64,000 bases of DNA from assembly GCF_054482525.1 (NCBI RefSeq), contig NZ_CM137006.1; one strand, written 5' to 3'. Each line of letters starts with the position of its first letter. The stretch's first letter is position 1. The notes under the pieces are model-generated. The model did not search any database. It had not been told where the DNA came from and worked only from the letters and a program-made list of their open reading frames with translations. Shown piece by piece: positions 2,577-4,745 of the stretch. The translations under genes were made by a program, and so were the position numbers.

Positions 2577-3335
2577 ATGAGCCTGACCCTCACACTTACT
2601 GGCACTGGCGGCGCACAGGGCGTTCCGGCATGGGGCTGCGAGTGCGTGGCCTGCGCCAGAGCGCGGCGCTCACCGCAGTATCGCCGCCAGCCATGCAGCG
2701 GCGTCGTGAAGTTTAACGACGCGATCACCCTGATCGACGCCGGGCTGCACGATCTCGCCGATCGCTGGTCGCCCGGATCGTTCCAGCAGTTTTTGCTGAC
2801 GCACTACCATATGGATCACGTGCAGGGGCTGTTTCCGCTGCGCTGGGGTGTGGGCGATTCGATCCCGATCTACGGCCCGCCGGATGAACAGGGCTGCGAC
2901 GATCTGTTTAAACATCCGGGCCTGCTTGATTTCAGCCACACGATGGAACCGTTTGTGGTGTTTGATTTACAGGGGTTACAGGTCACGCCCCTGCCGCTCA
3001 ACCACTCAAAACTGACCTTCGGTTATCTGCTGGAAACGGCACACAGCCGGGTGGCGTGGCTGTCTGACACCGCTGGCTTGCCGGAAAAAACGCTGAAATT
3101 TTTACGCAATAATCAGCCGCAGGTAATGGTGATTGATTGCAGCCACCCGCCGCGCGAGGATGCACCGCGTAATCACTGTGATTTAAATACCGTGCTTGCG
3201 CTGAATCAGGTTATCCGCTCGCCACGGGTGATTCTGACCCATATCAGCCACCAGTTTGATGCGTGGCTGATGGAAAACGCACTGCCGTCGGGGTTTGAGG
3301 CGGGGTTTGATGGGATGGAGATTGGGGTGGCGTGA
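2577..3335 (+). CDS. phnP: PhnP, metallo-beta-lactamase-fold phosphodiesterase
   Basis: 252-aa ORF with HxHxDH-type motif (THYHMDH); last gene of phn operon. Confidence 0.9.
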
Positions 3336-3350
3336 TGGGAGGGAATGTGC

Positions 3351-3477
3351 GCGCTGGCCCCCTCACCCTAACCCTCTCCCCAGAGGGGCGAGGGGACCGA
3401 TTGTGCTCGATATTGAATATTGCGCTGGTTTTCTCCCTCGCCCCATTGGGGAGAGGGCCGGGGTGAGGGGCGATGCC
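3351..3477. repeat. Pair of GC-rich boxC-like imperfect palindromic repeats in inverted orientation
   Basis: CCCCTCACCCTAACCCTCTCCCCAGAGGGGCGAGGGGA and its near reverse complement TCCCTCGCCCCATTGGGGAGAGGGCCGGGGTGAGGGG, separated by about 35 bp, in the phnP-yjdP intergenic region. Confidence 0.5.
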
Positions 3478-3493
3478 TGCTCCATACCCAACA

Positions 3494-3823
3494 TCAACGC
3501 CCATACTCATCTTCCATTCTCCGCTCTTCATCTTCTAGCTGCCGACGCTCCTGATCCAGCTGGCGCTGGCGATCGTCCAGCTGCCTGCGGCGATCTTCAA
3601 ACTGGCGGCGGCGATCGTCATATTGTCTGCGCCGATCGTCGTTCACTTCACGCTGCCAGCCGTCGTCGCGCGAATCTTCATAGTCTCGCCCACGGTCAGG
3701 GTTATAAGCGTCGTTAATCGCCTGCTGAATATTGCCAATGGTGTCGTCGATAATATCGGCCTGGGCCGGAACGGTGGACAGCGTGAGCAGGGTGAATAAA
3801 AGAAATAGCGGAAAGCGTTTCAT
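3494..3823 (-). CDS. yjdP: YjdP, small secreted protein with charged RRRQ/DD repeats
   Basis: 109-aa ORF with N-terminal signal peptide (MKRFPLFLLFTLLTLSTVPAQA) and repeated DRRRQ-type motifs. Confidence 0.8.
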   Translation of the reverse strand: MKRFPLFLLFTLLTLSTVPAQADIIDDTIGNIQQAINDAYNPDRGRDYEDSRDDGWQREVNDDRRRQYDDRRRQFEDRRRQLDDRQRQLDQERRQLEDEERRMEDEYGR

Positions 3824-3891
3824 TAGCCAACCTCAAAAAGAAACTCTATCCACATTAGTCATTACTCATCCATGCAAGTAGTGGATGAATC

Positions 3892-4092
3892 TCAATTTCT
3901 CCGCTGCTCTATTGCCGTAATCGCCTCCACGCGTTGTTGATGACGACCGCCTTCGTACTGCGCGCCCAGCCACGCATCCACAATCATTTTTGCCAGTTCG
4001 AGGCCAACCACTCGTGAACCAAAAGCCAGTGCAACTTCACTGGCGTAATGCGGATAATCAGTACGCTCTGACGACCTGGTTTCTTTATCAAT
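3892..4092 (-). pseudogene. rpiB: rpiB remnant (ribose-5-phosphate isomerase B), 3' portion only, with internal deletion
   Basis: Translation contains SSERTDYPHYAS...FGSRVVGLELAKMIVDAWLGAQYEGGRHQQRVEAITAIEQRRN, matching the RpiB C-terminus as recalled; the catalytic-Cys GTG-loop segment and the N-terminus are absent; upstream part of the ORF is not RpiB-like. Confidence 0.6.
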
Positions 4093-4241
4093 CCCCTCAC
4101 TCATTGACCATGAATAAAAGGCTGGCACAGCAACGCAGAATCCTGCGGTGCCAGCGACATGACCGCCCATTGCTCCGGTACGTTTTTTAATAAAAAACAC
4201 CGGTTGCATTGATTAATTGTGCTCAGGGTAATGACTCCAAC

Positions 4242-4745
4242 TTATTGATAGTGTTTTATGTTCAGATAATGCCCGATGACTTTGTCATGCAGCTCCACCG
4301 ATTTTGAGAACGACAGCGACTTCCGTCCCAGCCGTGCCAGGTGCTGCCTCAGATTCAGGTTATGCCGCTCAATTCGCTGCGTATATCGCTTGCTGATTAC
4401 GTGCAGCTTTCCCTTCAGGCGGGATTCATACAGCGGCCAGCCATCCGTCATCCATATCACCACGTCAAAGGGTGACAGCAGGCTCATAAGACGCCCCAGC
4501 GTCGCCATAGTGCGTTCACCGAATACGTGCGCAACAACCGTCTTCCGGAGACTGTCATACGCGTAAAACAGCCAGCGCTGGCGCGATTTAGCCCCGACAT
4601 AGCCCCACTGTTCGTCCATTTCCGCGCAGACGATGACGTCACTGCCCGGCTGTATGCGCGAGGTTACCGACTGCGGCCTGAGTTTTTTAAGTGACGTAAA
4701 ATCGTGTTGAGGCCAACGCCCATAATGCGGGCAGTTGCCCGGCAT
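4242..4745 (-). CDS. insB: IS1 InsB (transposase catalytic part, normally expressed as InsAB' by -1 frameshift)
   Basis: 167-aa ORF overlapping insA 3' end in the -1 frame; canonical IS1 organisation. Confidence 0.9.

What the first reader, a model, noticed from the sequence alone, without database searches (positions are those of the whole stretch)
3540..3700. Internal nucleotide repeats in yjdP encoding a charged DRRRQ-x-DD repeat array
The secreted 109-aa protein consists largely of degenerate repeats (RRRQYDD, RRRQFED, RRRQLDD, RQRQLDQ, RRQLEDE), mirrored by repeated CTGGCGGCGGCGATCGTC-like DNA units. Such arrays are prone to repeat-number variation. The function is unknown and the charge-alternating pattern suggests a coiled or disordered periplasmic protein.
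Basis: seen in the sequence. Interest (0 to 1): 0.2.

Follow-up and report, generated by a model that had tools for sequence, protein, structure and literature searches.

The report
Known heptad repeat in YjdP
The repeat is real, but it is the already-named "DDRRRQL" heptad array of the small exported E. coli protein YjdP, it encodes one long charged alpha-helix, and its copy number is almost fixed, so the finding is ordinary.

Summary
Window 3494-3823 (- strand) is yjdP (109 aa), 100% identical to E. coli PCN033. It matches NCBIfam NF041443 "DDRRRQL repeat protein YjdP" (147 bits, cut-off 90). All homologues carry Pfam PF28054:YjdP.

The repeat is real. TRF finds a 21-bp period (3560-3640, 3.9 copies). 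The protein has a lag-7 periodicity, 31 identities against 10.1±2.8 in shuffles.

AlphaFold2 models it as one 56-residue helix (pLDDT 88-96). The charges are ordered for i+3/i+4 salt bridges. A one-residue Leu stripe is conserved in relatives down to about 40% identity.

"Prone to copy-number variation" is only weakly true. 5386 of 5426 complete E. coli genomes hold most of the 171-bp array, and all 59 sampled rows that align across (nearly) all of it are ungapped. About 17-22 genomes (0.3-0.4%) carry in-frame deletions.

Most yjdP length variation (339/348/357/366 nt, about 9% of genomes, including an ST131 genome) comes from a different repeat. This is a 9-bp F-T-L repeat in the signal peptide.

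Function is untested. yjdP is induced about 10-fold by LolCDE inhibition. My best guess is an envelope-stress periplasmic protein that forms an antiparallel helical dimer. Already known; low interest.

The parts
3494..3823 (-). yjdP coding sequence (109 codons plus stop)
   Evidence: ORF list. 100% identical to the annotated yjdP of E. coli PCN033. NCBIfam NF041443, E = 1.2e-43, 147.4 bits against a cut-off of 90.
3758..3823 (-). Signal peptide, residues 1-22 (MKRFPLFLLFTLLTLSTVPAQA, predicted cleavage AQA|D, no lipobox Cys)
   Evidence: Read from the translation. A22 is nearly invariant and every family member has a basic N-terminus followed by a hydrophobic core. No signal-peptide predictor was available.
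3773..3796 (-). Degenerate 9-bp proto-repeat (TTCACCCTG CTCACGCTG TCCACC = F-T-L L-T-L S-T) in the signal-peptide core. In other strains it is a perfect TTCACGCTG array of 3-6 copies.
   Evidence: Codon listing. Allelic series of 339/348/357/366 nt. 477 of 5426 genomes carry expanded alleles.
3704..3757 (-). N-terminal amphipathic helix of the mature protein, residues 23-40 (DIIDDTIGNIQQAINDAY, with Ile/Ala at a 3-4 residue spacing)
   Evidence: AF2 puts a helix at 20-40, but with low confidence, pLDDT about 56-66. It is the most conserved block outside the repeat.
3641..3703 (-). Acidic linker of variable sequence, residues 41-61 (NPDRGRDYEDSRDDGWQREVN). AF2 leaves residues 41-52 as coil and starts the long helix at residue 53.
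   Evidence: AF2 gives coil at 41-52 with low pLDDT. Length and sequence vary across the family.
3497..3640 (-). Heptad array, residues 62-109: DDRRRQY DDRRRQF EDRRRQL DDRQRQL DQERRQL EDEERRM EDEYGR (21-bp units)
   Evidence: Heptad and codon table and permutation tests. TRF core at 3560-3640. AF2 helix 53-108 with pLDDT 88-96. The 'a' positions Y/F/L/L/L/M are conserved.
3824..3891 (-). 68-bp upstream region of yjdP, with a GAGG ribosome-binding site 8 nt before the ATG and a small inverted repeat (TCATCCA-N8-TGGATGA)
   Evidence: Sequence read. The consensus scan of 3300-4300, which includes this upstream region, found no sigma-70 promoter, which fits activator- or stress-dependent transcription (inference).

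Best explanation
The repeated DNA is an ordinary protein-coding tandem repeat. Six and a half 21-bp units encode the heptads (D/E)(D/E)RRRQ(L/F/Y/M) of YjdP, a small Sec-exported periplasmic protein found only in a narrow set of relatives (the named ones are Escherichia, Shigella and Citrobacter).

Shown here:
- The array is predicted to form one continuous helix of about 56 residues.
- The charges are placed so that nearly all i+3/i+4 neighbours are of opposite sign, which gives a salt-bridge network.
- Exactly one hydrophobic residue per heptad forms a narrow stripe.
- The number of heptads (six) and the stripe are conserved in relatives down to about 40% identity.
- The heptad number is constant in about 99.6% of complete E. 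coli genomes. The array is therefore held by selection on the protein and is not a hypervariable locus.
- Rare alleles arise by in-frame 21-, 42- or 72-bp deletions or duplications. For the deletions whose DNA I read (the 309-bp and 258-bp alleles), the ends lie between 6-9 bp exact direct repeats such as GATCGCCGC.

Inferred:
- The helix pairs with a second copy in antiparallel orientation. The 'd' positions run R,R,R,E,E,E and the heptad net charge runs +1,+1,+1,0,0,-2,-2. The basic half of one helix would therefore face the acidic half of the other across the Leu stripe.
- YjdP acts in the periplasm during envelope stress, because it is induced about 10-fold when lipoprotein sorting is blocked.
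- What it binds or protects is unknown.
For: Identity:
- 100% DNA match to annotated yjdP.
- NF041443 at 147 bits against a cut-off of 90. PF28054 on all homologues.

Repeat:
- TRF period 21.
- Lag-7 identities 31 against 10.1 +/- 2.8, 0 of 20,000 shuffles.

Helix:
- AF2 helix 53-108, pLDDT 88-96.
- Salt-bridge order: 36 opposite-charge i+3/i+4 pairs against 21.8 +/- 3.5 shuffled (P about 1.5e-4). Only 4 like-charge pairs against 21.2 +/- 3.5.

Conservation:
- Y68 and L89 are invariant. Six 'a' positions and a basic-to-acidic run at 'd' are kept in 12 family members at 34-86% identity.
- The family is narrow: 51 cluster representatives among 1.84 billion proteins.

Stability in E. coli:
- 5386 genomes hold most of the array, and all 59 sampled rows that align across (nearly) all of it are ungapped.
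- The 309-bp allele is in 16-18 genomes.
- One 258-bp allele was deleted between GGCAGC microhomologies.
- Exact 8-10 bp direct repeats lie at 21- and 42-bp spacing.

Dimer hint:
- A self-linked two-copy AF2 model has pTM 0.45, against 0.35 for the monomer.

Stress induction:
- yjdP is up 9.5- and 10.6-fold with a LolCDE inhibitor, listed among Rcs/Cpx/RpoS-controlled genes (PMC5105897).
Against: - No experiment on YjdP protein exists in the searched literature.
- The dimer model came from a covalently linked construct, which favours a hairpin. I could not inspect coordinates or PAE.
- The 'd' positions are charged, so this is not a canonical coiled coil. The same charge pattern also fits a monomeric single alpha-helix.
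- Asp is a weaker helix former than Glu.
- Which regulator drives yjdP was not determined by the cited study, and I found no convincing promoter or regulator box.
- The genome counts rest on BLAST identity and coverage bands plus evenly spaced samples of 40-60 rows, not on a full per-genome length table.
Confidence: 0.8

Rival explanations
1. The repeat forms a monomeric charged single alpha-helix (CSAH, or ER/K-type). This would be a stiff, soluble rod stabilised only by intrahelical salt bridges, with no self-association.
For: Opposite charges at i+3/i+4 are strongly enriched and like charges nearly absent. AF2 predicts a single long helix for the monomer at high confidence. The 'd' positions are charged, so a classical coiled-coil core is missing.
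Against: One hydrophobic residue per heptad (Y,L,L,L,L,L/M) is conserved in relatives down to 34-40% identity, which a pure CSAH does not need. The conserved basic-to-acidic polarity along the helix suggests pairing. A rod normally connects two domains, but here nothing follows the helix. The linked-copy model packs the helices together, though that test is biased.
Confidence: 0.3
2. The array is a contingency-type hypervariable repeat. Its copy number changes often between strains and tunes or switches the protein.
For: At least five independent in-frame heptad indels are seen among database proteins: 102-aa alleles of four kinds, one of 95 aa and one of 123 aa. The 102-aa protein P0040 is indexed in 2561 blocks of the assembly collection.
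Against: Most of the array is present in 5386 of 5426 complete genomes, and all 59 sampled rows that align across (nearly) all of it are ungapped. The main short allele is in only 16-18 complete genomes. Six heptads are retained across genera. The units are only 77% alike, with exact repeats of at most 10 bp, which is a poor substrate for slippage. All indels are in frame, so there is no on/off switching.
Confidence: 0.04
3. YjdP is an intrinsically disordered polyampholyte, like a hydrophilin or LEA protein, that shields periplasmic components during osmotic or desiccation stress. On this view the heptad periodicity has no structural meaning.
For: 55% of mature residues are charged and the net charge is -8. 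The gene is co-induced with osmotic and desiccation genes such as osmB, otsB and the wca genes. The linker 41-52 is predicted to be disordered.
Against: pLDDT is high (88-96) for a helix across the whole repeat. The charge order is non-random and helix-specific. Leu positions are conserved. Gly content is 4 of 87 (4.6%), below the more than 6% used to define hydrophilins (the definition is from my own knowledge).
Confidence: 0.06

Closest known systems
NCBIfam NF041443 'DDRRRQL repeat protein YjdP' / Pfam PF28054 (YjdP)
   Same: This gene is a full-length member. It scores 147.4 bits against a cut-off of 90 over profile positions 1-101 of 101. It has the same architecture as all homologues and the same position convergent with phnP.
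   Different: Nothing of substance. The window allele is the common six-heptad, 109-aa form, and it is identical to that of strain PCN033.
Charged single alpha-helices (CSAH, or ER/K motif; for example in myosin VI and X and in caldesmon)
   Same: Dense, ordered i+3/i+4 opposite-charge pairs, a heptad-like charge period, and a prediction as one long isolated helix.
   Different: D/R-rich rather than E/K/R-rich. It has a conserved hydrophobic residue in every heptad. It is periplasmic and terminal, so it is not a spacer between domains.
Antiparallel two-helix coiled coils and helical hairpins (for example PspA, prefoldin arms, p85 iSH2, LapD2)
   Different: There is no sequence relationship (6-13% identity; no PDB sequence hit). 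In YjdP the pairing would be between two chains, with one hydrophobic and one charged core position per heptad. The match is generic for any long helix pair.
Small envelope-stress periplasmic helical proteins of the LTXXQ family (CpxP, Spy, ZraP)
   Same: Small, exported, all-helical, rich in charged residues, and induced by envelope stress. cpxP is in the same induced list.
   Different: No Pfam hit to the LTXXQ family even at E <= 1. No repeated heptad array is known in those proteins (my own knowledge). No chaperone activity has been tested for YjdP.

Membership tests
NF041443 / PF28054 YjdP family | Profile-HMM score above the curated cut-off over the full length | tested here: met
   147.4 bits against a cut-off of 90, E = 1.2e-43, protein 1-103 on profile 1-101/101. 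PF28054 is precomputed on all 120 listed homologues, which are up to 99% identical to the query, and is named 'YjdP'. The local Pfam copy lacks this model.
NF041443 / PF28054 YjdP family | Tandem DDRRRQL-type heptads | tested here: met
   Six and a half heptads at residues 62-109. TRF period 21.
NF041443 / PF28054 YjdP family | N-terminal Sec signal peptide with an A-x-A signal peptidase I site | tested here: inconclusive
   MKR, a 15-residue hydrophobic core and AQA|D can be read from the sequence and are conserved. No predictor or experiment was available.
Charged single alpha-helix (CSAH, ER/K) | High density of opposite charges at i+3/i+4 and few like charges | tested here: met
   36 opposite pairs (shuffled 21.8 +/- 3.5) and 4 like pairs (shuffled 21.2 +/- 3.5) in helix 53-108.
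Charged single alpha-helix (CSAH, ER/K) | No hydrophobic seam | tested here: not met
   The 'a' positions Y,F,L,L,L,M are conserved across the family.
Charged single alpha-helix (CSAH, ER/K) | Monomeric and helical in solution | not testable with these tools
   Needs CD plus AUC or SEC-MALS.
Canonical coiled coil | Hydrophobic residues at both the a and d heptad positions | tested here: not met
   a = Y,F,L,L,L,M but d = R,R,R,E,E,E.
Contingency locus or VNTR (heptad array) | Frequent copy-number differences between strains | tested here: not met
   5386 of 5426 genomes hold most of the array and all 59 sampled rows that align across (nearly) all of it are ungapped. 16-18 genomes carry the 309-bp allele. 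About 17-22 variant genomes in all.
Hydrophilin or LEA-like protein | Gly above 6% together with high hydrophilicity (definition from my own knowledge) | tested here: not met
   Gly is 4 of 87, or 4.6%. The repeat is predicted to be a confident helix.
LTXXQ family (CpxP, Spy, ZraP) | Match to the Pfam LTXXQ model | tested here: not met
   Not among the Pfam hits even at E <= 1.

The most novel reading that the evidence does not exclude
Two readings remain open.

(1) YjdP may be an antiparallel 'charge-zipper' dimer. Its six-heptad length would be functionally fixed, and it would act as an envelope-stress (Rcs, Cpx or RpoS) effector in the periplasm.

(2) The separate 9-bp F-T-L repeat lengthens the signal-peptide hydrophobic core from about 15 to 18-27 residues in about 9% of E. 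coli genomes (3-6 copies, including an ST131 genome). This may change the export route (SRP instead of SecB) or block signal-peptidase cleavage. The protein would then switch between a soluble and a membrane-anchored form in a clone-specific, slippage-driven way.
Probability: 0.15. Interest if true: 0.4.

Novelty: already known. Interest (0 to 1): 0.13.

Why it matters
For the finding as given, it matters little. The repeat is already the name-giving feature of a curated family, and every RefSeq E. coli record listed in these searches annotates the gene that way.

Three modest points come out of the check:
1. The heptad number is under strong constraint. This suggests that the helix length is functional.
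2. The conserved Leu stripe and the basic-to-acidic polarity give a testable structural hypothesis for an orphan protein induced by envelope stress.
3. yjdP length differences between strains are mostly caused by a signal-peptide repeat. Length-based screens for 'repeat-protein variation' would therefore misattribute them.

Tried and rejected
- **Foldseek against PDB** with the two-copy model: 0 hits. This is uninformative for all-helical rods.
- **PDB sequence search**: only chance-level hits with E > 2.
- **Pfam** (local copy): only E of about 0.5-0.8 noise hits, namely DUF4140, RNase_Y_N and Arm-DNA-bind_5. Rejected.
- **Weak NCBIfam hits** (FlbB, RNase Y, HmpF, SA0632) are far below their cut-offs and reflect charged-helix composition. 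Rejected.
- **Literature**: searches for 'b4487' and 'DDRRRQL' found nothing relevant. 'yjdP' appears only in gene lists, and two of the seven hits are an unrelated rice line name.
- **Sigma-70 promoter scan** of 3300-4300: none found. The three 'terminator-like' hits are no more than the shuffles give, one lies in the truncated rpiB and two lie inside the repeat itself on the wrong strand.
- **Are the DNA units more alike than the protein repeat requires?** This would be a trace of recent duplication or gene conversion. Identical codons occur at 15 of 25 same-residue lag-7 pairs, against 11.1 +/- 2.0 after permuting synonymous codons, P = 0.053. The result is borderline and not claimed.
- **Overlapping ORFs** on the + strand (for example 3295-3717, 140 aa) were dismissed as shadows of the GC-rich repeat, because the - strand ORF is the conserved, annotated one.
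- **A second homology search** with a divergent member (P0135) returned only 8 unnamed proteins, so the taxonomic range beyond Escherichia, Shigella and Citrobacter remains unnamed.

Full report
**Observation**

The window holds a 330-bp ORF at 3494-3823 on the minus strand.

Tandem Repeats Finder reports a single array in 3400-3900. It lies at 3560-3640 with period 21, 3.9 copies, 77% matches and score 83.

Laid out by codons, the array is longer than that: DDRRRQY DDRRRQF EDRRRQL DDRQRQL DQERRQL EDEERRM EDEYGR, gene nt 184-327, which is window 3497-3640.

The periodicity is far beyond chance.
- There are 31 identities at lag 7 in the mature protein, against 10.1 +/- 2.8 in 20,000 shuffles. 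None of the shuffles reached 31, also after correcting for the best of lags 2-21.
- Lag-21 DNA identity is 0.67, against 0.21-0.46 at other multiples of 3 that are not multiples of 21; lags 42 and 63 give 0.65 and 0.53.

They miss the last two heptads. They include an acidic linker that is not a clear repeat.

**Identity**

- The gene is 100% identical to the annotated yjdP of E. coli PCN033. It is present in 5404 of 5426 complete E. coli genomes, and every listed record annotates it as 'DDRRRQL repeat protein YjdP'.
- It scores 147.4 bits (cut-off 90) against NCBIfam NF041443 over the whole profile.
- All homologues carry the precomputed Pfam family PF28054:YjdP.

So the repeat is the name-giving, curated feature of a known family.

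The family is small. An exhaustive HMMER scan of 1.84 billion cluster representatives gives only 51 hits at E <= 1e-3. Named members are Escherichia, Shigella and Citrobacter. Unnamed relatives at 40-60% identity keep the same architecture. Two of the three I looked up keep the same position, convergent with the last gene of the phn operon. The third lies next to rpiB but not phnP.

**Anatomy**

- Residues 1-22 look like a Sec signal peptide: MKR, a 15-residue hydrophobic core and AQA|D, with no Cys, so it is not a lipoprotein.
- Residues 23-40 form a conserved amphipathic segment, DIIDDTIGNIQQAINDAY.
- Residues 41-61 form an acidic linker that varies across the family. AF2 models 41-52 as coil.
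- Residues 62-109 are the heptads.

AlphaFold2, run on a 14-sequence family alignment, gives one continuous helix at 53-108 with pLDDT 88-96. Confidence elsewhere is low, and pTM is 0.35.

Within that helix the order of charges is non-random.
- There are 36 opposite-charge i+3/i+4 pairs, against 21.8 +/- 3.5 in shuffles (P about 1.5e-4).
- There are only 4 like-charge pairs, against 21.2 +/- 3.5.

In heptad register, 'a' is Y,F,L,L,L,M and 'd' is R,R,R,E,E,E. Net charge per heptad runs +1,+1,+1,0,0,-2,-2. The Leu stripe is conserved in relatives down to 34-40% identity, with Y68 and L89 invariant. The basic-to-acidic run at 'd' is kept in most of them.

Among database proteins there are at least five independent in-frame events.
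- Four kinds of 102-aa allele have each lost a different heptad (P0040, P0025/P0062, P0026, P0018).
- A 95-aa allele has lost two heptads (P0112).
- A 123-aa E. albertii allele has a 14-residue duplication (P0037).

Exact 8-10 bp direct repeats lie at 21- and 42-bp spacing in the gene. The deletion in the 309-bp allele, whose DNA I read, lies between two copies of GATCGCCGC.

These alleles are rare.
- With the 171-bp array as query, 5386 of 5426 complete genomes have a place covering at least 80% of it. All 59 sampled rows that align across (nearly) all of it are ungapped; 52 of them are exactly 171 nt. Seventeen records fall below 80% coverage and 5 fall in the 80-90% identity band.
- With the commonest 309-bp allele as query, only 16 genomes match at >= 99% and 2 more at 95-99%.
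- One genome has a 258-bp allele with a 72-bp deletion between GGCAGC microhomologies.

So the heptad number is six in about 99.6% of complete genomes and in distant relatives. However, 'prone to variation' overstates the case.

**A different repeat explains most length variation**

Sampled genomes with yjdP of 339, 348, 357 and 366 nt have an unchanged heptad array. They carry 3, 4, 5 or 6 copies of TTCAC(G/C)CTG (F-T-L) in the signal-peptide core, on an identical mature-protein background.

- 477 of 5426 genomes (8.8%) cover at least 80% of a 5-copy query.
- About 301 of them match it at >= 99%, including an O25b:H4-ST131 genome.
- The window allele has only the degenerate precursor, TTCACCCTG CTCACGCTG TCCACC, at 3773-3796.

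**How it probably works**

The points under Identity, Anatomy and Copy-number variation above are shown. What follows is inferred.

The main rival is a monomeric charged single alpha-helix. It explains the charge order, but it does not explain the conserved Leu stripe or the conserved polarity.

For biological role, the only data found are transcriptomic.
- yjdP is induced 9.5- and 10.6-fold by a LolCDE inhibitor. It is listed with genes that the authors attribute to Rcs, Cpx and RpoS (PMC5105897).
- It appears among the repressed genes in an acid-resistance regulator study (PMC5217608).

I therefore place YjdP as an envelope-stress periplasmic protein whose partner is unknown.

**Comparison with known systems, and verdict**

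YjdP is a full member of NF041443/PF28054. It resembles CSAH/ER-K helices in charge pattern but fails the 'no hydrophobic seam' criterion. It fails the canonical coiled-coil criterion because 'd' is charged. It does not match the LTXXQ stress proteins or any solved structure by sequence.

The finding is a correct but already-catalogued observation. Novelty is 'already known' and interest is low.

Noticed in passing
window 3773-3796 (- strand); expanded alleles in L014, L013, L002 and L012: A 9-bp repeat, TTCAC(G/C)CTG (F-T-L), lies in the hydrophobic core of the yjdP signal peptide. It is degenerate in the window. In other strains it is present as 3, 4, 5 or 6 perfect copies (gene lengths 339/348/357/366 nt) on an identical mature-protein background. 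477 of 5426 complete E. coli genomes carry expanded alleles, and about 301 carry the 5-copy form, including an O25b:H4-ST131 genome. This lengthens the hydrophobic core from about 15 to as many as 27 residues, which could affect targeting or cleavage (speculation).
   Followed up: partly
window 3359-3394 and 3435-3470: A G/C-rich inverted repeat (36-nt arms, 86% complementary, 40 nt apart; CCCTCTCCCC...GGGGAGAGGG type) fills the gap between the convergent phnP and yjdP genes. One paper lists a putative G-quadruplex-hairpin element at this yjdP/phnP junction in K-12 (PMC5100583). It looks like a dispersed intergenic repeat element, but I did not classify it.
   Followed up: no
window 3892-4209 (- strand) and 4242-4745 (- strand): Directly upstream of yjdP lies a truncated rpiB-like ORF of 105 aa. 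Only the C-terminal profile positions 102-138 of LacAB_rpiB match. Next to it is an IS1 transposase ORF (PF03400, E = 6e-78). PCN033, whose yjdP is identical, has the same truncated ORF, but no IS1 is annotated there. The allose (als) locus seems to be lost or rearranged in this lineage.
   Followed up: partly
window 3494-3823 (- strand), Arg codons: 7 of the 21 Arg codons in yjdP are codons that are rare in E. coli (CGG x3, AGA x2, AGG x1, CGA x1). Several sit at the same heptad position. They break up what would otherwise be longer exact DNA repeats. Whether this reflects selection against slippage or simply low expression was not tested.
   Followed up: no
L008 4001-4327, L010 4001-4342: Two of the three divergent YjdP homologues whose loci I looked up (41-58% identity, unnamed organisms) still sit convergent with the 3' end of the phn (phosphonate) operon, while the gene on the other side differs. 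The third sits beside rpiB without phnP. This is positional conservation with no obvious functional link.
   Followed up: partly
L005 (E. coli FLI21) 1-779: In one complete genome yjdP is interrupted by an IS1X2 insertion and is annotated as a pseudogene that lacks its N-terminus. The gene is therefore dispensable at least in that strain.
   Followed up: no
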